Origin: a virus
Lineage: Duplodnaviria > Heunggongvirae > Uroviricota > Caudoviricetes
Length of the DNA: 40,277 nucleotides
Reading direction: 5' to 3' (one strand)
IMG/VR virus record: IMGVR_UViG_2563366843_000005
Positions 4,961 to 20,091 of this stretch are shown piece by piece. Made by a program: the position numbers and the translations under genes. Positions within the stretch are counted from its first letter, which is position 1; the number at the start of each line of letters is the position of its first letter. The notes under the pieces are model-generated. The model had not been told where the DNA came from, ran no database searches, and worked only from the letters and a program-made list of their open reading frames with translations.

Positions 4961-5371
4961 TTAGTGGCTCAGACCACCGCCAGTACCATTCAGGTAAACC
5001 TCCACGAGCAAATCTTTTGTGTACGTTCGTTCGATGCCGCGATGCAAGTAAAGCCGACCGCGCAAATTAGCTGATGCCGTCCAGGTACCATCTTTGTGTT
5101 TAACCAGCATACCTGGCCGGACGGCACCGCGATTAACGGTCTGAGTTCCGTAATGTTGATGAACCATAAAAACTCCTGCCCGTAAGCTGGGCTGCTGAAC
5201 ATATAGAGACTTCTGCGCGTATTCAGGCGGTGGATGGCCGCCGGTTGTCATAACTAAGCCGCCTCGTTGAAGCGACTGAGGTATGAAGTGTTGAGTTGAT
5301 TTCAGCTGGTCACACCGACGTTCACGCGTCCGCTTCACCCCTCGCACTCCCCGGAGCCTGCTGAAATTCAA
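4961..5371 (-). CDS. hypothetical protein, first ORF downstream of pL; possible N-like antiterminator
   Basis: GC-rich ORF starting at TTG or an internal GTG/ATG; N-proximal Arg-rich stretch (VKRTRERRCDQLK) resembles arginine-rich motifs of N proteins; no C-terminal similarity to lambda N. Confidence 0.3.
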   Translation of the reverse strand: MNFSRLRGVRGVKRTRERRCDQLKSTQHFIPQSLQRGGLVMTTGGHPPPEYAQKSLYVQQPSLRAGVFMVHQHYGTQTVNRGAVRPGMLVKHKDGTWTASANLRGRLYLHRGIERTYTKDLLVEVYLNGTGGGLSH

Positions 5372-5431
5372 GCTGCGGATCTAAGCGGTCATCGCAACGG
5401 CGAATCAGGTGGTTGCCGTATCGTTGTGTTG

Positions 5432-5487
5432 TTGCGACATGGTGATAATAGCTATTGCTATTAGTGATATCAATACTTATTGCTATT
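5432..5487 (-). promoter_or_regulatory. pL promoter with OL operators (-35 TTGATA at 5468-5473, 17-bp spacer, -10 TATTAT at 5445-5450, minus strand)
   Basis: Sigma-70-like hexamers on the minus strand; three TTGC-core 8-mers at 5432, 5455 and 5480 (about 25-bp spacing) mirror the array at PR. Confidence 0.5.
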
Positions 5488-5612
5488 GATTGATGCATTT
5501 TGATATTAACTGTTTGATAGCAAAAGGAATTAATTTTGTGACTTGCATCGCATAGCGATAACTGAAGCGGGGGTTGTGGTGGTTTTTTGAACGGTGTGTG
5601 ATGAGGGGAGGC

Positions 5613-5640
5613 AAAAGAAAACCCGGCACGACGGCCGGGG
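5613..5640 (-). terminator. rho-independent terminator ending the cI operon
   Basis: GC stem CCCGGC/GCCGGG with 6-nt loop, followed on the minus strand by a T-run (TTTTCTTTT), directly after the stop of the 287-aa gene. Confidence 0.6.
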
Positions 5641-5643
5641 AAA

Positions 5644-6507
5644 TCATTTCGCATCTACAATAAATAACCTGTTTATCTGGCCTTTTTTAACAGTAGCCTT
5701 TGCGGTTATAGTGAATACTGCAGATGGATCACCTTTGGTTGATATATATGCACTAAGAGCTCTAATATACGGGTTATTCTTCTTTCCTGCAGCTGGATCG
5801 CTAATTTCAGCAGTGATTCTCTTTTTTGAGTCATCACCATCTAAAATTATTTTAGCTGTCATATTTTGTGCATCAAATTCTGTAAGAAAAGCACGATACT
5901 CACGAAGACCGAGAACTTCATCATCATCAAGCCTATCAATTTCAGCTTTATCTCTCTCGTTAACTTTTAGAAGGCAGCCGTCAACATTTGTTGCAACACT
6001 TATCTGATCGCAAGTATTACCAATAGGTGATACTGCCTGCCTTACAGAGGGGCGAAGCTCTACAGCCATTCGGTCAATCAAAGAGATCAACTTATCAATG
6101 GTTCCAGCATCCTTGTTTCCTAGTGCCTCTATGGCCTTTTCAAGTGACTGCTGCAAAGCTTTCATTTCATCTTTCTTGTTAGAATTTCTCGCAAAAATAT
6201 ATTGTAGTATTGCGCCAAGTATAGTTGCGGCGATCCCCGAGAACAACTGGTTCTGAGTGGCGAAGTTAAGAACTGCTTCAAGAGTAAAGCAGTTAGCTTT
6301 TGCTTCGCGTGCGTAAACCTTAACTTCCTGATAATTAATGTATTTACTATATTTTTGTGTAACAGAGAAAGAAGCTGCTGTTGAGAGAACTTTAGAAAAA
6401 CCCTTTAGGGATTCTCCTAGGCAGTTCAAATCTATTTCATGATTTAAAGCATCTTTTCCGTCATACCTAAGAGAGATTTTTATATCCTGTAAAGCGTCAC
6501 AATCCAT
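5644..6507 (-). CDS. hypothetical protein in the rexAB-equivalent slot; candidate exclusion or defence protein
   Basis: 287-aa ORF, visibly AT-rich, 66 bp downstream of cI on the same strand, followed by a terminator; one central hydrophobic segment ([18 protein letters not shown]); no recognisable family. Confidence 0.6.
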
Positions 6508-6573: not shown

Positions 6574-7266
6574 TTATCCATGTTTCCTGTACGTCTGGGG
6601 CATGCTCCCAATAACCTTACCGAAGATGAACACCCGGTTCATCTCGTCTTTCTCGATCGGGTCCCACGGTGAGTAGCTCTTGTTATCAGAGATAACCAGC
6701 AGCTTATCCTTCATCATTTGCAGGCGCTTTACATGGGCGGTGTCGTCGTACAGAAACGCATAGATGCCATCACCGTCGAAAGATTTAACCGTGATATCAA
6801 CGAACAGCAGATCACCTGGTTCGATCGTTCCTGACATGCTGTCACCACGCACGTTAATGATGCGGATATTTTCCGCCTTCCTGCCATCGAACATGTGACG
6901 AGCATCGTCAAACGAGTACTCAACCGAGCGTAGGACTTCTACAAACTCACGGTTGATGACTCCCGGCCCGGCACTCACTTCTATATCAAGAACGTCAATC
7001 TTGAAGTATTTGGAATGGTTGACAGTAGGCTTCCCTGATTGTTGACCGTCATTTCTCATCGGGCCTATGCCTGATGAGAGCCACTCTGTTCGAACACCCA
7101 ATGCATTAGCTATTTCAACAATTTTTGTTGAGCCGCGCGCGTTGCCGCTTGTCAGTCTCCAGATTGTTGGTTGAGCTACGCCAGACGCCTTTGCAAGAGC
7201 GCCTTGAGACATCCCAGATTGTTCCATCGCTAGGTTTAAGCGATCAGCAAGAGTTTCTTTTTTCAT
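6574..7266 (-). CDS. cI: CI-type prophage repressor (HTH plus S24 LexA-like peptidase domain)
   Basis: N-terminal HTH; Ala-Gly cleavage site (VSAGPG); GDSM serine and downstream KRL lysine of S24 peptidases; start set at ATG 7264-7266 (leaderless relative to putative PRM) rather than the upstream ORF start at 7323. Confidence 0.85.
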   Translation of the reverse strand: MKKETLADRLNLAMEQSGMSQGALAKASGVAQPTIWRLTSGNARGSTKIVEIANALGVRTEWLSSGIGPMRNDGQQSGKPTVNHSKYFKIDVLDIEVSAGPGVINREFVEVLRSVEYSFDDARHMFDGRKAENIRIINVRGDSMSGTIEPGDLLFVDITVKSFDGDGIYAFLYDDTAHVKRLQMMKDKLLVISDNKSYSPWDPIEKDEMNRVFIFGKVIGSMPQTYRKHG

Positions 7267-7275
7267 AAGTTTTAA

Positions 7276-7345
7276 TTTATACGCTTGCGTATTGATGGTC
7301 AAAACACGTTTTGCTATTGTCATGGTTAATACGCATTGCTATTAT
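7276..7345. promoter_or_regulatory. OR operator region with divergent PRM (leftward) and PR (rightward; -35 TTGTCA 7317-7322, -10 TATTAT 7340-7345)
   Basis: TTGC-core 8-mers at 7285, 7311 and 7336 at the same spacing as at pL; 14-bp palindromes ATACGCTTGCGTAT (7279-7292) and CAAAACACGTTTTG (7300-7313); PRM-like TTGACC-15-TATAAA on the minus strand ending next to the cI ATG. Confidence 0.55.
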
Positions 7346-10187: not shown

Positions 10188-10254
10188 TGAAACAGGTGAG
10201 TTGATTTCAAACTGTAGTACAATTCTCTCCAGTTTGAACAGGAAAGAATATGCT

Positions 10255-10587
10255 ATGAACCCTTATATTTATCTTGGTGGTGCAATACTTGCAGAGGTCA
10301 TTGGTACAACCTTAATGAAGTTTTCAGAAGGTTTTACACGGTTATGGCCATCTGTTGGTACAATTATTTGTTATTGTGCATCATTCTGGTTATTAGCTCA
10401 GACGCTGGCTTATATTCCTACAGGGATTGCTTATGCTATCTGGTCAGGAGTCGGTATTGTCCTGATTAGCTTACTGTCATGGGGATTTTTCGGCCAACGG
10501 CTGGACCTGCCAGCCATTATAGGCATGATGTTGATTTGTGCCGGTGTGTTGGTTATTAATTTATTGTCACGAAGCACACCACATTAA
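10255..10587 (+). CDS. emrE: small multidrug resistance (SMR) efflux transporter EmrE
   Basis: 110 aa from MNPYIYLGGAILAEVIGTTLMKFSEGF..., matching E. coli EmrE (a DLP12 prophage gene in K-12). Confidence 0.9.
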   Translation: MNPYIYLGGAILAEVIGTTLMKFSEGFTRLWPSVGTIICYCASFWLLAQTLAYIPTGIAYAIWSGVGIVLISLLSWGFFGQRLDLPAIIGMMLICAGVLVINLLSRSTPH

Positions 10588-10843: not shown

Positions 10844-12370
10844 ATGAAAAAAGCCATAGCATATATGCGATTTTCATCACCAGGTCAGATGTCTGGCGAC
10901 TCATTAAACCGACAGAGAAGACTTATTGCTGAATGGTTAAAGGTAAATAGTGATTATTATCTTGATACCATAACATATGAAGATTTAGGATTAAGTGCAT
11001 TCAAAGGAAAGCATGCACAATCAGGAGCTTTTTCGGAATTTTTAGATGCTATAGAGCATGGTTATATATTGCCAGGAACTACATTGTTAGTTGAAAGTCT
11101 GGACAGACTTTCAAGAGAAAAAGTCGGTGAAGCGATTGAGCGTCTGAAATTGATTTTGAATCACGGTATTGATGTTATAACTCTTTGCGATAATACAGTC
11201 TATAATATTGACTCTTTGAATGATCCATATTCATTAATAAAAGCCATACTTATAGCACAAAGGGCAAATGAAGAAAGCGAGATAAAGTCAAGTCGGGTTA
11301 AATTATCATGGAAGAAAAAACGGCAGGATGCACTGGAGTCAGGCACGATTATGACGGCGTCTTGTCCGAGATGGCTCTCCTTAGATGACAAAAGAACGGC
11401 TTTTGTTCCAGACCCCGACAGGGTGAAAACTATTGAGCTAATTTTTAAACTCAGGATGGAAAGGCGCTCATTGAATGCAATAGCCAAGTATTTAAATGAT
11501 CATGCTGTAAAGAATTTCTCAGGAAAAGAAAGTGCATGGGGACCTTCTGTAATTGAAAAATTATTAGCGAATAAAGCTCTGATAGGTATATGCGTACCTT
11601 CATATCGTGCAAGAGGTAAAGGAATAAGTGAAATCGCTGGCTATTATCCCAGAGTCATATCAGATGATTTGTTTTACGCTGTGCAGGAAATTCGGTTGGC
11701 ACCTTTTGGTATTAGCAATAGTAGCAAAAATCCTATGTTGATAAATCTACTTCGAACAGTTATGAAGTGCGAGGCTTGTGGTAATACCATGATTGTTCAT
11801 GCGGTATCTGGAAGTTTGCATGGCTATTATGTTTGTCCGATGAGAAGACTGCATCGATGTGACAGGCCATCAATAAAGAGAGATTTGGTTGATTATAATA
11901 TCATTAATGAGTTGCTTTTTAATTGTAGTAAAATCCAACCAGTTGAAAACAAGAAAGATGCTAATGAAACTTTAGAGTTGAAAATTATTGAGCTCCAGAT
12001 GAAAATTAATAATTTAATTGCTGCATTATCTGTTGCGCCTGAAGTTACCGCTATAGCAGAAAAAATCAGAGTATTAGATAAGGAATTACGAAGGGCTTCT
12101 GTATCATTAAAAACTTTGAAGAGTAAAGCGGTGAGCTCACTTGGTGATTTTCATGCTATTGACTTAACCAGTAAAAATGGACGAGAGTTATGCCGTACAC
12201 TTGCCTATAAAACATTCGAAAAAATCATAATTAATACGGATAATAAAACCTGTGATATCTATTTTATGAATGGCATTGTTTTTAAACACTATCCTTTAAT
12301 GAAAGTAATATCCGCCCAGCAGGCGATAAGTGCTCTCAAATATATGGTTGATGGTGAGATTTATTTCTAA
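10844..12370 (+). CDS. ybcK: large serine recombinase (resolvase/invertase family), YbcK-like
   Basis: 508 aa, low-GC; N-terminal resolvase-type domain (AYMRFSSPGQ, catalytic Ser context) plus large recombinase domain with Cys-rich zinc-ribbon region. Confidence 0.85.
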   Translation: MKKAIAYMRFSSPGQMSGDSLNRQRRLIAEWLKVNSDYYLDTITYEDLGLSAFKGKHAQSGAFSEFLDAIEHGYILPGTTLLVESLDRLSREKVGEAIERLKLILNHGIDVITLCDNTVYNIDSLNDPYSLIKAILIAQRANEESEIKSSRVKLSWKKKRQDALESGTIMTASCPRWLSLDDKRTAFVPDPDRVKTIELIFKLRMERRSLNAIAKYLNDHAVKNFSGKESAWGPSVIEKLLANKALIGICVPSYRARGKGISEIAGYYPRVISDDLFYAVQEIRLAPFGISNSSKNPMLINLLRTVMKCEACGNTMIVHAVSGSLHGYYVCPMRRLHRCDRPSIKRDLVDYNIINELLFNCSKIQPVENKKDANETLELKIIELQMKINNLIAALSVAPEVTAIAEKIRVLDKELRRASVSLKTLKSKAVSSLGDFHAIDLTSKNGRELCRTLAYKTFEKIIINTDNKTCDIYFMNGIVFKHYPLMKVISAQQAISALKYMVDGEIYF

Positions 12371-12834: not shown

Positions 12835-13386
12835 ATGAAAACACTTATCGTTTCAACTGTATTGGCATTCATAACATTTTCTGCGCAGGCTGCAGCATTT
12901 CAGGTCACTAGTAATGAAATAAAAACAGGAGAGCAACTTACAACGTCTCATGTCTTTTCTGGATTTGGGTGTGAAGGTGGTAATACATCGCCCTCATTAA
13001 CCTGGTCTGGTGTTCCTGAAGGTACCAAAAGCTTTGCCGTAACTGTATATGATCCAGATGCACTTACAGGCAGTGGTTGGTGGCATTGGACTGTTGTTAA
13101 TATTCCAGCAACAATAACATATTTGCCCGTTGATGCAGGGAGACGTGATGGAACAAAACTGCCGACTGGTGCTGTTCAAGGCCGAAATGATTTTGGCTAT
13201 GCTGGGTTTGGTGGCGCATGTCCTCCTAAAGGAGATAAACCACATCATTACCAGTTTAAAGTATGGGCTCTAAAAACTGAAAAGATTCCTGTAGATTCTA
13301 ACTCCAGCGGAGCGTTAGTTGGTTATATGCTTAATGCTAATAAAATCGCAACCGCTGAGATAACACCAGTTTATGAGATAAAGTAG
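12835..13386 (+). CDS. ybcL: periplasmic PEBP/UPF0098-family protein YbcL
   Basis: 183 aa with N-terminal signal peptide (MKTLIVSTVLAFITFSAQA); recalled match to DLP12 YbcL. Confidence 0.85.
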   Translation: MKTLIVSTVLAFITFSAQAAAFQVTSNEIKTGEQLTTSHVFSGFGCEGGNTSPSLTWSGVPEGTKSFAVTVYDPDALTGSGWWHWTVVNIPATITYLPVDAGRRDGTKLPTGAVQGRNDFGYAGFGGACPPKGDKPHHYQFKVWALKTEKIPVDSNSSGALVGYMLNANKIATAEITPVYEIK

Positions 13387-13395
13387 GGTGAGAGT

Positions 13396-14193
13396 ATGCT
13401 GGCAAGAGGTAAGACTAACTTAAAGATCGAAGAAATACGGATGCATAAACATCATGAGATTCATAGGGTTAAGCCTCTTATGCCAGCTTTGTGTCGTATC
13501 CGTCAGGGAAAGAAAGTTATCAATTGGGAGACGCATACTTTAACTGTTGATAATAATCAAATAATATTATTTCCTTGTGGTTATGAATTTTATATTGAGA
13601 ATTATCCTGAAGCAGGGCTTTATCTTGCAGAAATGCTTTACTTACCCATTGATTTAATTGAGAGTTTCCAAAAACTTTATACGGTAACTGATCAAATACG
13701 TAACAAAACAAGTTTCTTTTTACCTCAGAATCCTGAGTTAATATATTGTTGGGAGCAACTAAAAACATCTGTTTCCCGAGGCTTCTCAACTAAAATTCAG
13801 GAGCACTTAGCAATGGGCGTTCTACTTTCGTTAGGAGTGAATCATGTTAATCATTTACTTTTATCATATAGTAAACAATCATTGATAAGTCGTTGTTATA
13901 ACCTGCTGCTATCCGAACCCGGCACAAAATGGACAGCAAACAAGGTTGCTCGATATCTCTACATTTCTGTTTCTACATTACATCGCCGTCTAGCAAGCGA
14001 GGGGGTAAGTTTCCAAAGTATACTGGACGATGTGAGGTTAAATAATGCGTTGTCTGCTATACAAACGACGGTAAAACCTATAAGCGAGATTGCCAGAGAA
14101 AATGGTTATAAGTGTCCTTCTCGTTTTACTGAAAGATTTCATAATCGTTTTAATATAACACCAAGAGAGATAAGAAAAGCTTCCAGAGAGTAA
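13396..14193 (+). CDS. ybcM: AraC-family transcriptional regulator YbcM
   Basis: 265 aa with C-terminal AraC-type HTH; low-GC. Confidence 0.8.
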
Positions 14194-15316: not shown

Positions 15317-15675
15317 ATACCTACAGTATCACATTACCCTGGCCTCCGAGCAATAATCGCTATTACCGCCATAATCGCGGGCGCACGCACGTCAGTGCAG
15401 AGGGGCAGGCATACCGCGATAACGTCGCCCGAATCATTAAAAACGCAATGCTGGATATCGGCCTGGCTATGCCTGTGAAAATCCGCATTGAGTGCCACAT
15501 GCCGGATCGCCGTAGCCGTGACCTGGATAATCTGCAAAAAGCCGCTTTTGACGCACTCACTAAAGCAGGTTTCTGGCTGGATGATGCTCAGGTCGTTGAT
15601 TACCGCGTTGTGAAGATGCCTGTTACCAAAGGTGGGAGGCTGGAACTGACCATCACCGAAATGGGGAATGAATGA
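15313..15675 (+). CDS. rusA: Holliday junction resolvase RusA
   Basis: 120 aa, matches E. coli RusA. Confidence 0.9.
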
Positions 15676-15812
15676 TGTTTGAGTTTAATATGGCAGAACT
15701 TCTTCGCCACCGCTGGGGGCGTCTGCGCTTATATCGTTTCCCCGGCTCTGTTTTGACCGATTACCGAATACTGAAGAATTACGCCAAAACACTGACAGGA
15801 GCAGGAGTATGA
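15672..15812 (+). CDS. ylcG: small protein YlcG-like (46 aa)
   Basis: ATGA overlap with rusA stop; hand-translated [46 protein letters not shown]. Confidence 0.6.
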
Positions 15813-15897
15813 AGTCAGAGATAACAATCAACTAATACTGTTTTGTTGATTTTTGCTTGTAATTGGCGTTCTGGTCTGAGTTTTGTGGAGTAAGTTG

Positions 15898-16275
15898 ATG
15901 CGTGATATTCAGATGGTTCTTGAGCGTTGGGGAGCGTGGGCGGCTAATAATCATGAAGATGTGACCTGGTCGTCCATTGCCGCCGGTTTTAAGGGATTAA
16001 TTCCTTCAAAAGTAAAATCTCGCCCGCAATGTTGTGACGATGACGCGATGATCATTTGCGGGTGCATGGCCCGTCTGAAAAAGAACAACAGCGATTTGCA
16101 TGATTTATTGGTGGACTATTATGTCGGCGGCATGACTTTTATGGCGCTTGCACGTAAGCATGGGCGATCTGATTGTTGGGTTGGCAGGATGCTCCAGAAA
16201 GCTGAGGGCGTAGTGGAGGGTATGCTGATGGTGTTGGATCTCCGATTGGAGATGGATGCTGATTGTTCGAAATAA
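15898..16275 (+). CDS. quuD: late-gene antiterminator Q (QuuD-like)
   Basis: 125 aa from [22 protein letters not shown]...; Cys cluster ([12 protein letters not shown]); position upstream of the lysis cassette. Confidence 0.8.
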
Positions 16276-16373
16276 TTAAAGGAAAAGTTGCTGTCTGATT
16301 CTCATTAGTCTAACATTTTAAATGTTGGAATCGCAACGTAGTTATTATCATATAACAGCTTGTTTCCTGATTT

Positions 16374-16402
16374 AGCCAGCCTCCCCAAAGGCTGGTTTTT
16401 TT
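16374..16402 (+). terminator. rho-independent terminator downstream of Q (tR'-like)
   Basis: Stem CCAGCC/GGCTGG, loop TCCCCAAA, followed by TTTTTTT; candidate pR' hexamers TTGCTG-17-TAACAT at 16288-16316 are weak. Confidence 0.55.
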
Positions 16403-16430
16403 CTAATAAGTATTATTTCGGGTAGGGATT

Positions 16431-16955
16431 TTATTGTTTAACCCATAATAATTCATTGACATTGAATCCCAACTTTTGAGCGGTTCGCACATAGTCTGCT
16501 TTTACTTTATCTGGAATAGTTGGGGTCCTTGCCAGAATCCATAGGTATTCTCTGTTCGGACCACTGACAAGAGCATACTTATACTCATCATCCAGTTTGA
16601 TTACATTATAGCCACCATAGAAGGGGCCAAAAAACGAAACCTTCAACGCTGCAGTTTTAGTATCTCCAGTAAAGTATGCTTTACCTTCGCTCTCGCTCCA
16701 TTTATTTTTCGTTGGATCGTATCCACGGTTAAGTACACGAATCCCTCCGTCGTTCCGTTTTCCATAGGTAGCGCTGACCTGTTCCAGACCACGTTCGAAC
16801 CGGTTCTCGAGGCGAGCTATTTCATACCATTTTCCGAGGTAGCGGTTGGCGTCAAAATTTGTAATCGGCTGCACACCTTTAGGTGGTGTCGGGGCCTTAC
16901 ATGCTATAAGAGTGAAAGAGAGTGCAATGCCAGTCAACACAGGCCATAACTTCAT
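16431..16955 (-). CDS. outer-membrane lipoprotein, bacterial lipocalin Blc homologue
   Basis: 174 aa with signal peptide and lipobox (LIAC); strong recalled similarity to E. coli Blc (NFDANRYLGKWYEIAR, KAYFTG, LKVSFFGPFYGGYNVI, YLWILARTPT). Confidence 0.85.
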   Translation of the reverse strand: MKLWPVLTGIALSFTLIACKAPTPPKGVQPITNFDANRYLGKWYEIARLENRFERGLEQVSATYGKRNDGGIRVLNRGYDPTKNKWSESEGKAYFTGDTKTAALKVSFFGPFYGGYNVIKLDDEYKYALVSGPNREYLWILARTPTIPDKVKADYVRTAQKLGFNVNELLWVKQ

Positions 16956-17147
16956 AATAAATCCTGTACTTTTGATAGTTGAGAGTAAGTATGAAAGATA
17001 GATGATTACGACCGATCACTTAAAGAACTTTCATACTATATTAGGAATAGTCTATAACAGAAAAATTGTCAGTGATGACGCCAGAAAGGCAATTTATTCC
17101 GTGCACTACACAGTTTATGTGTTAATGAATTAGTCAAGGGGGAGAAT

Positions 17148-18107
17148 ATGATAAAAAAACCTGTGATTGGAATCAGCGGTTGTTTGGCCGGCTCTGCTGT
17201 TCGTTTTGATGGTGGTCACAAAAGAGCTGACTTTTTAATGGACAAATTAGTGGAATGGGTAACATTCAGACCAGTATGTCCGGAAATGGCTATAGGGCTG
17301 CCAGTTCCGCGTCCTGCTCTACGTCTTGTGCGCTCGACGCAAGGAAATATACGGATGTGTTTCAGCCACGACCAGAATGAGGATGTGACAGAGAGAATGA
17401 CAGAGTTTAGTCGTTCTTATATGGACAAATTAAAGGATGTATCGGGGTTTGTGGTTTGTGCTAAATCTCCCAGCTGTGGCATGGAGCGCGTGCGTGTCTA
17501 TGATGAAAATGGTAATCGAGGTCGTAAAGATGGAGTGGGACTATTTACGAGCACTTTGATGGAAAAGTTTTCTTGGCTACCGGTTGAAGAGGATGGGCGA
17601 TTACATGATCCAGTGCTTCGTGAGAATTTTGTTGAAAGAGTTTTTGCTTTGCATGAGCTCAATCACCTTTACAAGGAGAAATTATCAAGAAGAGAGTTAT
17701 TAGCTTTTCATAGTCGTTATAAGCTTCAGTTGTTGGCGCATAGTCAGGCAGGCTATAAAGATATGGGACCATTTGTGGCTGCAATACACGAGTGGGCGGA
17801 CCTTGAATCATACTTTGAGGTGTATCGTGATAAGCTGATGGCGATTCTCAGAAAACCTGCATCACGTAAAAATCACACGAATGTGCTGATGCATATACAG
17901 GGGTATTTTAGTAACTACTTAAGTACACGCCAGCGTAAAGAGTTGAGCGAGGTTATACTTAACTATCGTTCTGGCACATTACCTCTTCTTGCGCCGTTGA
18001 CTCTGCTGAAGCATTATCTGGGTGAGTATCCTAATGATTACTTGCTTACACAGAATTACTTCGATCCCTATCCGGACGAACTGGCTCTAAGACTGATGGT
18101 AAATTAA
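17148..18107 (+). CDS. YbgA-like protein (DUF523 TudS-like domain plus DUF1722)
   Basis: 319 aa; N-terminal Cys-containing motifs (GISGCLAG, VCPE, AKSPSCGMERV) resemble the Fe-S-binding DUF523 family; C-terminal region resembles YbgA. Confidence 0.65.
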   Translation: MIKKPVIGISGCLAGSAVRFDGGHKRADFLMDKLVEWVTFRPVCPEMAIGLPVPRPALRLVRSTQGNIRMCFSHDQNEDVTERMTEFSRSYMDKLKDVSGFVVCAKSPSCGMERVRVYDENGNRGRKDGVGLFTSTLMEKFSWLPVEEDGRLHDPVLRENFVERVFALHELNHLYKEKLSRRELLAFHSRYKLQLLAHSQAGYKDMGPFVAAIHEWADLESYFEVYRDKLMAILRKPASRKNHTNVLMHIQGYFSNYLSTRQRKELSEVILNYRSGTLPLLAPLTLLKHYLGEYPNDYLLTQNYFDPYPDELALRLMVN

Positions 18108-18458
18108 TTGTATGCGATATCATCCAAAAGGATGAGTTCCTGCATGCAGGATATTTACAATCGTAAAAACTACACTATGATACCCAGAGTGTCAGTTTGT
18201 ATAAAAACTCTGTTTACGCTGAAGAAACCATTGAGATGCAACTTAAAGTTGGTAAACATGCCAGTCAAAATATATAATATTATGATTCCACGCAGCTATA
18301 TATAATATAACAGATTGGTTTAATAATTTGTCTTTGTGAGTTAAATACATAATTTTATACTTGTGATGCAATGAGATTTTCCTTATTGTTGAACTGGCGA
18401 ATATTGATTTTCCACCTATACTTACCTGGTGTAACCCCAATGATATCAGGTGGATAAT

Positions 18459-19190
18459 ATGCCATACATATGTTCTATCATTTTGGTGTTGAACTCGTTT
18501 GATGTCCGAATTGGTAAAGAAGATATTTTGTTTAAAAAAGGAAGTGCTGTTCTCATTGATTACAATTTAAAAGATTTTTTTTCATCAAATATAGATCATG
18601 TAATGATCGTAGATGTTGAAGAGAAAACAGTTAATGATTTCTTTAAAAGCAACACACTCTCACCTTTTTCTGTAAGAAGGTTTTATCCGGCATACTTGAT
18701 GGTGGAATGTGAAGATTTTTCATTGTTAAAGAACTTGATTGCATGCTTGAATTGTGATGGCAGAACTGTGGATTTTGTTAGAAATCAAATATCACTTGCA
18801 TGTCTTGCTATCTTATCTTCAGAGAAAATAGTGCAAAGTTTTTTATTTGGATGTCTTAATAGTTTAGGAAGTAAAGTTAAGGCTATTATTCACACGGATA
18901 TATCTGCAGCATGGAGACTTTGTGATATATCTTCAAGACTGTATCTGAGTGAAAGTCTGTTAAAAAGAAAATTAAAGCACGAAGGCTTATCATTTAGTAA
19001 GTTAATTCTTGAAGAGCGAATGGTGATGGCGGAAAGGTTATTAAGCTACAATTTATATTCTGTTGGAAAAGTTGCTGAGATATGCGGTTATGAAAACACG
19101 TCATATTTTGTAAGTGTTTTCAGAAGATATTTTGGTGTTCCTCCCCATCAATATTCATCAAGACTTTTTTTAGAAAAAGACATGATGTAA
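18459..19190 (+). CDS. AraC-family transcriptional regulator, AppY/EnvY-like
   Basis: AT-rich ORF with C-terminal AraC HTH (GYENTSYFVSVFRRYFGVPP); N-terminus aligns with AppY; alternative GTG start at 18450. Confidence 0.75.
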   Translation: MPYICSIILVLNSFDVRIGKEDILFKKGSAVLIDYNLKDFFSSNIDHVMIVDVEEKTVNDFFKSNTLSPFSVRRFYPAYLMVECEDFSLLKNLIACLNCDGRTVDFVRNQISLACLAILSSEKIVQSFLFGCLNSLGSKVKAIIHTDISAAWRLCDISSRLYLSESLLKRKLKHEGLSFSKLILEERMVMAERLLSYNLYSVGKVAEICGYENTSYFVSVFRRYFGVPPHQYSSRLFLEKDMM

Positions 19191-19251
19191 CGTGATGCGT
19201 TTTAATGATTTTGTAATTTTCGTATTTGATAATTGTATGATGCTTTCAGCT

Positions 19252-19283
19252 ACGCCAGAATAATCGCTGGCGTTTTTCTTTTT
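19252..19283 (+). terminator. rho-independent terminator after the AraC-like gene
   Basis: Stem ACGCCAG/CTGGCGT, 8-nt loop, T-run TTTTTCTTTTT. Confidence 0.6.
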
Positions 19284-19378
19284 GAATAGATGTTCAAGCC
19301 TTACGCTAATGTAACTTCTATACCTTTCCTCTTCGTTCCGAACCGTGTACACCATCCGTTATTTGCGGAGGTGAGGCT

Positions 19379-19594
19379 ATGAAATCCATGGATAAGTTAA
19401 CAACGGGCATTGCCTACGGCACCTCCGCAGGCAGTGCTGGCTACTGGTTTTTACAGCTGCTCGATAAAGTCACGCCCTCACAGTGGGCAGCAATAGGTGT
19501 GCTGGGTAGCCTGGTATTTGGCTTGCTGACGTACCTGACAAACCTTTATTTCAAGATTAAAGAAGATAAGCGCAAGGCTGCGAGAGGTGAATAA
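19379..19594 (+). CDS. essD: class II holin / pinholin (S21-type), dual-start motif
   Basis: 71 aa MKSMDK... with two TM segments; GGAGGTGAGG RBS; matches DLP12 EssD and phage 21 S. Confidence 0.9.
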
Positions 19595-20091
19595 TGCCTC
19601 CATCATTACGAAAAGCCGTTGCTGCTGCTATTGGTGGCGGAGCAATTGCTATAGCATCAGTGTTAATCACTGGCTCAAGTGGTAACGATGGTCTGGAGGG
19701 TGTCAGCTACATACCATACAAAGATATTGTTGGTGTATGGACTGTATGTCACGGGCATACAGGAAAAGACATCATGCTCGGTAAAACGTATACCAAAGCA
19801 GAATGCAAAGCACTCTTGAATAAAGACCTTGCCACTGTCGCCAGACAAATTAACCCATACATCAAAGTCGATATACCGGAAACAACGCGCGGCGCTCTTT
19901 ACTCATTCGTTTACAACGTGGGTGCTGGCAATTTCAGAACATCGACGCTTCTTCGCAAAATAAACCAGGGCGATATCAAAGGCGCATGTGATCAGCTACG
20001 TCGCTGGACATATGCTGGCGGTAAGCAATGGAAAGGCCTGATGACTCGTCGTGAGATTGAGCGTGAAGTCTGTTTGTGGGGGCAACAGTGA
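19594..20091 (+). CDS. rrrD: SAR endolysin (lysozyme with N-terminal signal-anchor-release domain)
   Basis: 165 aa; Gly/Ala-rich SAR domain ([18 protein letters not shown]) followed by lysozyme domain; matches R21/RrrD. Confidence 0.9.

What the first reader, a model, noticed from the sequence alone, without database searches (positions are those of the whole stretch)
17148..18107. Prophage-encoded YbgA-like protein with a probable Fe-S DUF523 (TudS-like) domain
The N-terminus carries Cys residues in contexts (GISGCLAG, VCPE, SPSCGMERV) resembling the DUF523 family, of which the thiouracil desulfurase TudS is the characterised member. The C-terminal half resembles the DUF1722 part of E. coli YbgA, a gene normally chromosomal. 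In the Q-S moron position it may act on thiolated nucleobases or nucleosides, possibly tied to nucleic-acid modification or counter-defence.
Basis: inference. Interest (0 to 1): 0.5.

Follow-up and report, generated by a model that had tools for sequence, protein, structure and literature searches.

The report
Prophage copy of tRNA desulfidase RudS
This prophage gene encodes RudS, a known iron-sulfur enzyme that strips the light-sensitive sulfur mark (4-thiouridine) from host tRNA; a 93%-identical phage version has already been tested, so the gene is ordinary, although why a phage carries it is still unknown.

Summary
The ORF at 17148-18107 (+, 319 aa) is real. It has full-length Pfam matches to 2-thiouracil desulfurase/DUF523 (E 3e-40) and DUF1722 (E 2e-40). 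That fusion defines RudS, the tRNA 4-thiouridine (s4U) desulfidase described by Jamontas et al. 2024 (PMC11417400).

The window protein is 93% identical, without gaps, to RudS_vir (phage 1H12 gp66). That paper showed RudS_vir lowers tRNA s4U when overexpressed in E. coli. So are the catalytic Glu46, Arg55, Ser107 and Ser109, and the tRNA-contact Ser239 and Arg240.

The gene lies between antiterminator Q and holin S of a DLP12-like lambdoid prophage. About 20% of complete E. coli genomes carry it (1064 of 5426), annotated "YbgA family protein". It is always paired with a divergent Blc-like lipocalin gene. The same pairing occurs in Enterobacter and Citrobacter chromosomes, so the phage probably captured a chromosomal block, leaving behind the MerR-type regulator found in the Enterobacter arrangement.

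Between phage alleles dN/dS is 0.10. I found no defence signature.

Its role in phage or lysogen biology is untested.

The parts
17148..18107 (+). rudS coding sequence (319 aa plus stop), a TudS-DUF1722 fusion. PGAP names the identical protein 'YbgA family protein' WP_000592546.1.
   Evidence: ORF. Pfam domains. 93% identical to RudS_vir. 100% identical DNA in E. coli CE10 and others. PHROG 3275 matched full length, E 1e-227.
17166..17594 (+). TudS / 2-thiouracil desulfurase (DUF523) catalytic domain, residues 7-149. Cluster ligands are Cys12 (17181-17183), Cys44 (17277-17279) and Cys110 (17475-17477). Catalytic residues are Glu46, Arg55, Ser107 and Ser109.
   Evidence: PF04463 E 3.1e-40. Aligns with TudS 6Z92. 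These residues are invariant in 61 homologues. Their roles were assigned by mutagenesis of RudS_KT.
17721..18074 (+). DUF1722 domain, residues 192-309, the tRNA anticodon-arm binding module of RudS. Ser239 and Arg240 correspond to RudS_KT Ser243 and Arg244.
   Evidence: PF08349 E 1.9e-40. 49% identical to K-12 YbgA. Ser239 and Arg240 are invariant.
17137..17145 (+). Shine-Dalgarno-like AAGGGGGAG, 3 nt upstream of the ATG.
   Evidence: Read directly from the sequence.
16431..16955 (-). Blc-like outer-membrane lipocalin lipoprotein gene (174 aa). It is the divergent, constant partner of rudS.
   Evidence: PF08212 E 7e-44. NCBIfam Blc subfamily 316 bits, above the cut-off of 267. 60% identical to K-12 Blc. 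Adjacent to rudS in 80 of 80 viral loci and linked to it in Enterobacter, Leclercia and Citrobacter chromosomes.
18459..19190 (+). AraC-family (YdeO/GadX-like) regulator gene with low GC. It is a variable third gene of the cassette.
   Evidence: HTH_18 and HTH_AraC domains. YdeO model 126.8 bits, below its cut-off. GC of 0.30-0.34. Present in 71 of 80 viral loci, and missing from 5 in which the holin follows rudS directly. The start codon follows the PGAP annotation.
15883..16275 (+). Late-gene antiterminator Q, the upstream boundary of the moron slot.
   Evidence: PF06530 E 2.5e-51.
16374..16397 (+). Terminator-like hairpin with a T-run between Q and the 3' end of blc. It is a candidate tR' and/or the blc terminator.
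   Evidence: Pattern scan, which found no more sites than chance predicts. Conserved in phage 1H12. The function is inferred.
19252..19273 (+). Terminator-like hairpin with a T-run after the AraC-like gene and before holin S.
   Evidence: Pattern scan. Conserved in phage 1H12. The function is inferred.
19379..19594 (+). Holin S (EssD/P21 type), the downstream boundary of the moron slot.
   Evidence: PF04971 E 2.2e-35.

Best explanation
The gene encodes a prophage-borne RudS, a [4Fe-4S] desulfidase that removes the sulfur from 4-thiouridine at position 8 of host tRNAs and leaves plain uridine.

Mechanism, by homology to TudS and RudS_KT. Cys12, Cys44 and Cys110 hold the cluster. The fourth iron is free and binds the thiocarbonyl sulfur of the flipped-out s4U. 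Glu46, positioned by Arg55, Ser107 and Ser109, activates water for attack at C4, and sulfide leaves by way of a [4Fe-5S] intermediate. The C-terminal DUF1722 domain, with Ser239 and Arg240, holds the anticodon arm so that whole tRNA is the substrate rather than free base.

Consequence, shown for RudS_KT and inferred here. With less s4U there is less UVA-induced s4U8-C13 cross-linking, less uncharged tRNA and a shorter growth delay.

Origin, inferred. The gene and its divergent blc-like neighbour were captured together from a Citrobacter/Enterobacter-like chromosome. In the Enterobacter arrangement a MerR-type regulator lies between the two genes; the phage copy has none. The pair landed in the Q-S moron slot of DLP12-like lambdoid prophages.

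Expression, inferred. In that slot the gene can be read by the Q-antiterminated late transcript, and possibly from a weak promoter of its own in lysogens.

My favoured role is a fitness factor under sunlight or UVA for the lysogen, for the induced phage, or for both.
For: Shown here:
- Both domains match full length.
- 298 of 319 residues are identical, without gaps, to RudS_vir, H3V29_gp66 of phage 1H12.
- All residues whose mutation abolished or reduced RudS_KT activity are invariant in 61 homologues: Cys12/44/110, Glu46, Arg55, Ser107/109, Arg19, Gly22, Arg59, Glu148, Arg151, Ser239, Arg240.
- dN/dS is 0.10 between the window and 1H12 alleles, with 22.5 non-synonymous and 52.5 synonymous differences.
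- The gene is present at 80% coverage or more in 1064 of 5426 complete E. coli genomes.
- In 80 IMG/VR loci, 79 have Q upstream and all 80 have blc adjacent.
- The nearest non-phage relatives, 70-77% identical, are chromosomal genes of Citrobacter, Kluyvera, Enterobacter and Klebsiella. Many keep blc next to rudS. In Enterobacter a MerR/MlrA-type regulator lies in between.

From the literature (PMC11417400):
- Overexpressed RudS proteins, RudS_vir included, lower E. coli tRNA s4U 4.7- to 26-fold.
- TudS alone or YbgA alone does not.
- RudS_KT works in vitro and shortens the UVA growth delay.
Against: - Nothing was measured on this exact protein.
- RudS_vir had lower tRNA activity than RudS_ST at similar protein levels, and the shortest lag on free 4-thiouracil. 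Its substrate preference may therefore be shifted.
- The phage clade has replaced several residues that are at least 90% conserved in chromosomal homologues, including four arginines: R71C, R175Y, R255S, R267S.
- No convincing sigma-70 promoter precedes the gene. The promoter-like count equals chance. Whether lysogens express it is unknown.
- The MerR-type regulator seen next to the Enterobacter homologue is absent.
- The UVA benefit is shown only for overexpressed RudS_KT.
- In the searchable library I found no paper that examines what the gene does for the prophage or lysogen; the RudS paper tested RudS_vir only as one enzyme among six.
Confidence: 0.8

Rival explanations
1. The phage enzyme works mainly as a TudS-like salvage desulfidase on free 4-thiouracil, 4-thio-UMP or 4-thiouridine. 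It would recycle thiolated pyrimidines released from degraded host tRNA into the nucleotide pool during lytic growth.
For: Among six RudS proteins, RudS_vir gave the shortest lag on 4-thiouracil in a pyrF auxotroph, and lower tRNA desulfidation than RudS_ST at comparable protein levels. The phage clade has lost several conserved arginines outside the catalytic core.
Against: RudS_vir still lowered tRNA s4U significantly and did not support growth the way stand-alone TudS did. The DUF1722 domain is under purifying selection, with Ser239 and Arg240 kept. s4U is a tiny fraction of cellular pyrimidine, so the salvage gain would be small (inference).
Confidence: 0.1
2. The gene is a passenger with no selected function in the prophage. 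It hitch-hiked with blc or with the AraC-like regulator, which would be the real lysogenic-conversion genes.
For: The pair looks like a captured chromosomal block. No own promoter is evident. Copies in BL21 and a few other genomes are truncated.
Against: dN/dS is 0.10 across 75 substitutions between phage alleles. All catalytic residues are kept. The gene is full length in about 1000 genomes and in every one of 80 viral loci, including 5 that lack the AraC-like gene.
Confidence: 0.07
3. The enzyme is a phage weapon or shield in phage-host or phage-phage conflict. It would edit host tRNA to escape tRNA-targeting defence nucleases or to exclude superinfecting phages.
For: Moron slots often hold conflict genes (general knowledge). 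The substrate is tRNA, a common battleground (inference only).
Against: PADLOC gave no hit for rudS, blc or the AraC-like gene. The closest relatives are ordinary chromosomal genes linked to a MerR-type regulator. To my knowledge no defence system is reported to read s4U8. The window has no phage tRNA genes.
Confidence: 0.03

Closest known systems
RudS_vir (Escherichia phage 1H12 gp66, H3V29_gp66, YP_009909557.1), tested in Jamontas et al. 2024, NAR 52:10543 (PMC11417400)
   Same: 319 aa, 93% identical without gaps. It has the same Cys12/44/110. It sits in the same Q | blc(-) | rudS | araC-like | S cassette.
   Different: There are 21 amino-acid differences, none at catalytic or tested tRNA-contact residues. 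The window allele is the commoner one in E. coli genomes: 595 genomes are at 99% or more to the window, whereas 1H12-type DNA is about 92% identical.
Chromosomal RudS of Enterobacteriaceae, e.g. Salmonella RudS_ST (STM1389, 'ORF319'), and the Citrobacter and Enterobacter homologues
   Same: Same length of 318-319 aa and same architecture. They are 70-77% identical, and blc is a neighbour in many. RudS_ST has Cys12/44/110 as here.
   Different: Those genes are chromosomal. In the Enterobacter locus I scanned, rudS follows a MerR/MlrA-type regulator and a transthyretin-like gene. The phage copy has lost that regulator and sits in a late-operon moron slot. I did not retrieve or align RudS_ST itself.
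RudS_KT (Pseudomonas putida PP_0741), the biochemically characterised prototype
   Same: Same fusion architecture. All residues essential in RudS_KT have equivalents here.
   Different: Tyr25 is Phe20 here, a change that is neutral in RudS_KT. Asn26 is Asp21. Met108 is Cys104. RudS_KT lies in a photolyase-LitR light-induced operon. I did not measure its identity to the window protein.
TudS (stand-alone DUF523; PDB 6Z92/6Z96), 2-/4-thiouracil and 4-thio-UMP desulfidase
   Same: Homologous catalytic domain with a cluster held by three cysteines and a free fourth iron.
   Different: TudS has no DUF1722 domain, acts on free bases and nucleotides, and does not lower tRNA s4U. The sequence match to the crystal structure is weak, E 2e-4 with the single sequence and 6e-6 with a profile, and covers only the first ~80 residues.
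E. coli K-12 YbgA (b0707)
   Same: DUF1722 domain, 49% identical to residues 164-315.
   Different: YbgA is 169 aa, has no catalytic domain, has no effect on s4U, and lies in an operon with the photolyase gene phr. PGAP's label 'YbgA family protein' for the window protein therefore understates what it is.

Membership tests
RudS (TudS-DUF1722 tRNA s4U desulfidase) | N-terminal TudS/DUF523 domain (PF04463) | tested here: met
   Residues 7-149, full profile, E 3.1e-40, 137.9 bits against a cut-off of 34.7.
RudS (TudS-DUF1722 tRNA s4U desulfidase) | C-terminal DUF1722 domain (PF08349) fused in the same polypeptide | tested here: met
   Residues 192-309, full profile, E 1.9e-40. It is a single uninterrupted ORF.
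RudS (TudS-DUF1722 tRNA s4U desulfidase) | Three conserved cysteines that ligate the [4Fe-4S] cluster | tested here: met
   Cys12, Cys44 and Cys110 are the positions listed for RudS_vir and RudS_ST. They are invariant in 61 homologues. Cys12 and Cys44 align with TudS Cys10 and Cys43. The assignment of Cys110 to TudS Cys104 rests on the full-length Pfam match and on the paper, not on a direct alignment made here.
RudS (TudS-DUF1722 tRNA s4U desulfidase) | Catalytic Glu, two Ser and Arg (RudS_KT Glu51, Ser111, Ser113, Arg60) | tested here: met
   Glu46, Ser107, Ser109 and Arg55 are present and invariant. Their roles come from mutagenesis of RudS_KT.
RudS (TudS-DUF1722 tRNA s4U desulfidase) | DUF1722 residues that contact the tRNA anticodon region (RudS_KT Ser243, Arg244) | tested here: met
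   Ser239 and Arg240 are invariant. The mapping is by colinear offset and was not checked on a structure.
RudS (TudS-DUF1722 tRNA s4U desulfidase) | Desulfidation of s4U in tRNA | not testable with these tools
   Shown in vivo for the 93%-identical RudS_vir and in vitro for RudS_KT. Not measured for this allele.
RudS (TudS-DUF1722 tRNA s4U desulfidase) | Predicted fold: a TudS-like core plus two four-helix groups | tested here: inconclusive
   The single-sequence AlphaFold2 model has a mean pLDDT of 40.5 and is unusable. I made no alignment-based model.
RudS (TudS-DUF1722 tRNA s4U desulfidase) | Host encodes the s4U writer ThiI (a typical association, not a strict requirement) | not tested
   thiI is a core E. 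coli gene by established knowledge. The paper reports that 94% of DUF1722-encoding species have ThiI.
Light-responsive (MerR/LitR-photolyase-linked) rudS loci | Adjacent MerR/LitR-type regulator or photolyase | tested here: not met
   The cassette has no MerR-type or photolyase gene. The Enterobacter homologue has a MerR/MlrA-type gene between blc and rudS. This is a context feature and not a criterion for the enzyme family.
Stand-alone TudS | Single DUF523 domain protein of about 150-170 aa | tested here: not met
   The protein is 319 aa with a fused DUF1722 domain.
Known anti-phage defence or counter-defence proteins | Match to a PADLOC model | tested here: not met
   No hit at E <= 0.01 for rudS, blc or the AraC-like protein.

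The most novel reading that the evidence does not exclude
The prophage uses RudS as a phage-deployed eraser of a tRNA modification. Sunlight that induces the prophage through DNA damage also cross-links s4U-tRNA by its UVA component, and that stalls translation and raises ppGpp. By stripping s4U, the phage (or the lysogen beforehand) would keep translation running and blunt the stringent response, protecting the lytic programme. The lipocalin captured with it would be a second part of the same light-stress kit. This would be a case of a temperate phage reprogramming the host tRNA epitranscriptome to override a host stress checkpoint.
Probability: 0.2. Interest if true: 0.6.

Novelty: already known. 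Interest (0 to 1): 0.22.

Why it matters
The enzyme family and a near-identical phage orthologue are published, so the molecular identity is not new. Four points are useful.

- The database label "YbgA family protein" hides a complete, probably active tRNA s4U eraser.
- About one in five complete E. coli genomes carries it on a prophage. This qualifies the paper's statement that E. coli lacks TudS or RudS homologues. E. coli strains may therefore differ in tRNA s4U level and UVA response according to prophage content.
- The gene travels as a blc-rudS pair taken from a chromosomal cluster that in Enterobacter includes a MerR-type regulator. That makes a concrete, testable case of a light-stress module turned into a moron.
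- BL21, the host used to assay RudS proteins, carries an IS3-truncated remnant of this gene.

No one has tested what the gene does for the phage or the lysogen.

Tried and rejected
- Single-sequence AlphaFold2 gave a mean pLDDT of 40.5. I ran no fold search on it.
- Sequence and profile searches of the PDB reached only TudS, and only its first ~80 residues. The third cysteine could not be aligned directly. No solved structure matched DUF1722.
- The promoter and terminator scan of 15600-19700 found no more sites than chance predicts. pR' and any own promoter of rudS stay unassigned.
- Alignment with the K-12 DLP12 Q-S intergenic regions showed only patchy similarity.
- The blc-rudS intergenic region does not align with that of Citrobacter, so I could not trace a regulator site.
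- PADLOC, Rfam and the tRNA scan found nothing relevant.
- Literature searches for a link between the prophage cassette and s4U, or for the cassette itself, found nothing. A search for lipocalins in LitR light regulons gave no usable support.
- The window as a whole is a mosaic. No complete E. coli genome covers 80% or more of its first 25 kb.
- I rejected 'E. coli YbgA-like fusion' as a description, because K-12 YbgA lacks the catalytic domain.

Full report
**Observation**

A strong Shine-Dalgarno-like AAGGGGGAG lies just upstream.

Pfam gives two non-overlapping matches, each covering the whole profile. PF04463 '2-thiouracil desulfurase' (formerly DUF523) covers residues 7-149 with E 3.1e-40. 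PF08349 DUF1722 covers residues 192-309 with E 1.9e-40. Both are far above their curated cut-offs. NCBIfam matches only the YbgA model over residues 160-315, at 190.8 bits and below its equivalog cut-off of 237.

The neighbours confirm the Q-S position in a lambdoid prophage. YbcO, RusA and YlcG come first, then antiterminator Q (15883-16275). The cassette follows. After it come a P21-type holin (19379-19594), lysozyme, Rz and Bor/Iss.

**Identity**

A TudS domain fused to DUF1722 is the defining architecture of RudS, described by Jamontas et al. 2024 (NAR 52:10543, PMC11417400). That paper reports the following.
- Six RudS proteins overexpressed in E. coli lower tRNA 4-thiouridine 4.7- to 26-fold.
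- Stand-alone TudS and E. coli YbgA (DUF1722 alone) do not.
- Purified RudS_KT acts on tRNA in vitro.
- The cluster cysteines and Glu51, Ser111, Ser113 and Arg60 are essential.
- DUF1722 binds the anticodon region.
- RudS_KT shortens the UVA-induced growth delay.

One of the six proteins was 'RudS_vir', gene H3V29_gp66 of Escherichia phage 1H12. I retrieved that phage region. The window protein is 298/319 (93%) identical to gp66 with no gaps. The 1H12 locus has the same gene order: Q, blc(-), rudS, AraC-like gene, holin.

The paper lists Cys12, Cys44 and Cys110 as the cluster ligands of RudS_vir.

In an alignment of 61 homologues (window, 1H12 and 59 chromosomal genes) the following are invariant (roles):
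- Cys12, Cys44 and Cys110;
- Glu46, Arg55, Ser107 and Ser109;
- Arg19, Gly22, Arg59, Lys106, Glu148 and Arg151;
- Ser239 and Arg240.

Cys12 and Cys44 also align with Cys10 and Cys43 of the TudS crystal structure.

**Distribution and selection**

The 960-bp gene is present at 80% coverage or more and at least 90% identity in 1064 of 5426 complete E. coli genomes, almost always on the chromosome. The 3.1-kb cassette is present in 989. PGAP calls the identical protein 'YbgA family protein', WP_000592546.1.

Cultured lambdoid phages carry it too. IdasGreatGrand matches at 99.2%, and 1H12 with a series of 'Lambda_' phages at about 89%. PHROG 3275 matches it full length but has no assigned function. 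IMG/VR holds at least 150 contigs with it.

In the 80 best IMG/VR loci, 79 have Q upstream and all 80 have the divergent blc gene. The AraC-like gene is present in 71. It is missing from 5 loci in which the holin follows rudS directly.

Between the window and 1H12 alleles dN is 0.031 and dS is 0.304, a ratio of 0.10. For blc the ratio is 0.06. Both genes are therefore under purifying selection while resident in prophages.

**Origin**

In a one-genome-per-species collection, the closest relatives outside E. coli prophages are chromosomal genes. They come from Citrobacter, Kluyvera, Klebsiella, Enterobacter, Leclercia and Pectobacterium and are 66-77% identical.

In most Enterobacter and Leclercia loci, and in Citrobacter sedlakii, a gene about 80% identical to the phage blc lies divergently upstream of rudS. 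In C. sedlakii the two are directly adjacent, as in the phage. In Enterobacter a MerR/MlrA-type regulator and a transthyretin-like gene lie between them.

I infer that the phage captured a chromosomal blc-rudS block without the MerR-type regulator that accompanies it in Enterobacter. The AraC-like gene has much lower GC, 0.30-0.34 against 0.40-0.48 for rudS. It is dispensable in some loci, so it was probably added separately.

The same Q-S slot in K-12 DLP12 holds nmpC::IS5 instead. In E. coli CE10 the cassette sits in the DLP12 prophage at argU. In BL21 a copy in a Qin-like prophage (hokD and rem nearby) is cut after 147 nt by IS3. The best relative of the window's left half sits next to icd.

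**Mechanism**

Domain identity and residue conservation are shown here. The chemistry is taken over by homology:
- a [4Fe-4S] cluster on three cysteines;
- substrate sulfur binding to the free iron;
- Glu-activated water;
- a [4Fe-5S] intermediate;
- DUF1722 holding the anticodon arm.

Activity on tRNA s4U is shown for the 93%-identical orthologue, not for this allele.

Expression is inferred. A hairpin with a T-run at 16374-16397 lies between Q and blc, and another lies at 19252-19273 before S. This resembles the pR'-tR'-moron-S layout of lambdoid phages, in which Q-modified polymerase reads through to the lysis genes. If so, rudS would be transcribed late after induction. Whether lysogens also express it is unknown, and the scan found promoter-like sites only at the chance rate.

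The proposed benefit is also inferred. It would be less s4U8-C13 photo-cross-linking under UVA, hence less translational arrest and a smaller ppGpp burst for the lysogen or for an induced phage. That inference rests on the RudS_KT result and on the light-responsive, MerR-linked context of chromosomal rudS genes described in the paper, together with the MerR-type neighbour I found in Enterobacter.

**Points against an over-simple reading**

RudS_vir showed the best growth on free 4-thiouracil and lower tRNA activity than Salmonella RudS at similar protein levels.

The phage clade differs from 59 chromosomal homologues at 21 sites that are otherwise at least 90% conserved. These include T14A next to Cys12 and the loss of four arginines: R71C, R175Y, R255S, R267S. 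None of these sites was mutated in the paper, so their meaning is open. A partly shifted substrate preference is possible.

**Rivals**

- A TudS-like salvage role is possible but secondary.
- A functionless passenger is unlikely given the dN/dS ratio and the gene's retention.
- A defence or counter-defence role has no support: no PADLOC hits, and no tRNA genes or Rfam elements in the window.

**Comparison and novelty**

The protein meets every sequence-level criterion of RudS. It is essentially the commoner allele of the already tested RudS_vir, so the finding is already known at the molecular level.

E. coli K-12 YbgA is only the DUF1722 half, so 'YbgA-like' describes only the C-terminal half.

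What is not known is the biological role of the prophage copy. Searches of the held literature found no study of it.

**Dead ends**

- The single-sequence structure model was unusable, with pLDDT 40.5.
- PDB sequence searches reached only the N-terminal part of TudS.
- Intergenic alignments gave no regulatory clue.

Noticed in passing
window 16431-16955 (-): A Blc-like outer-membrane lipocalin lipoprotein, 60% identical to K-12 Blc, is the constant divergent partner of rudS. It is adjacent in 80 of 80 viral loci and linked to rudS in Enterobacter, Leclercia and Citrobacter sedlakii chromosomes. The pair may be a functional unit, perhaps a light- or envelope-stress module. Its role is unknown.
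   Followed up: partly
window 18459-19190 (+): A low-GC (0.30-0.34) AraC-family regulator whose closest curated model is YdeO (126.8 bits, below cut-off). It is present in 71 of 80 viral loci and absent from 5 in which the holin follows rudS directly. It may belong to the prophage Psr/PatE group of acid-resistance and T3SS regulators reviewed in PMC10877973. I did not compare it with those proteins.
   Followed up: partly
L068 4001-4147 (E. coli BL21, NZ_CP053601.1 1558651-1558797): BL21 carries Q, blc and a rudS remnant cut after 147 nt by an IS3 element, in a Qin-like prophage. BL21(DE3) was the expression host in the RudS study, which describes E. coli as lacking RudS.
   Followed up: yes
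window 17148-18107, residues 14, 71, 76, 142, 175, 178, 255, 267 and others: The phage alleles (window and 1H12) share 21 replacements at sites that are at least 90% conserved in 59 chromosomal RudS proteins. They include T14A beside the cluster ligand Cys12 and the loss of four arginines (R71C, R175Y, R255S, R267S). This may relate to the lower tRNA activity and higher 4-thiouracil activity reported for RudS_vir.
   Followed up: partly
window 17457-17459 (Cys104): A fourth cysteine, Cys104, is invariant in the enterobacterial and phage clade. It sits at the active-site position that is Lys98 in TudS and Met108 in RudS_KT. Its significance is unknown.
   Followed up: no
window 5644-6507 (-): A 287-aa protein with DUF7946 and DUF7947 domains lies beside the CI-like repressor (6574-7323, HTH plus S24 peptidase). 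It has a weak PADLOC hit to the candidate defence protein PDC-S42 (E 1.5e-4). It may be a prophage defence gene in the immunity region.
   Followed up: partly
window 10201-10587, 10844-12370, 12835-14193: The early-right region carries DLP12-type cargo: an EmrE-like SMR transporter, the YbcK large serine recombinase, the YbcL Raf-kinase-inhibitor-like protein and the YbcM AraC-type regulator. This prophage therefore encodes two AraC-family regulators.
   Followed up: no
L149 2030-4326 (K-12 DLP12) versus window 16431-19190: The Q-S slot that holds blc-rudS-araC here holds the porin pseudogene nmpC::IS5 in K-12 DLP12. This shows cargo exchange at one phage site.
   Followed up: partly
L151 6140-6517 (E. 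coli GmM066 prophage related to the window): A related prophage encodes an ASCH-domain protein in the region left of the repressor. A 2026 preprint title in the search results proposes ASCH proteins as tRNA ac4C erasers. Pfam scans of the window ORFs at 4964-6507, the region left of its repressor, found no ASCH domain.
   Followed up: partly
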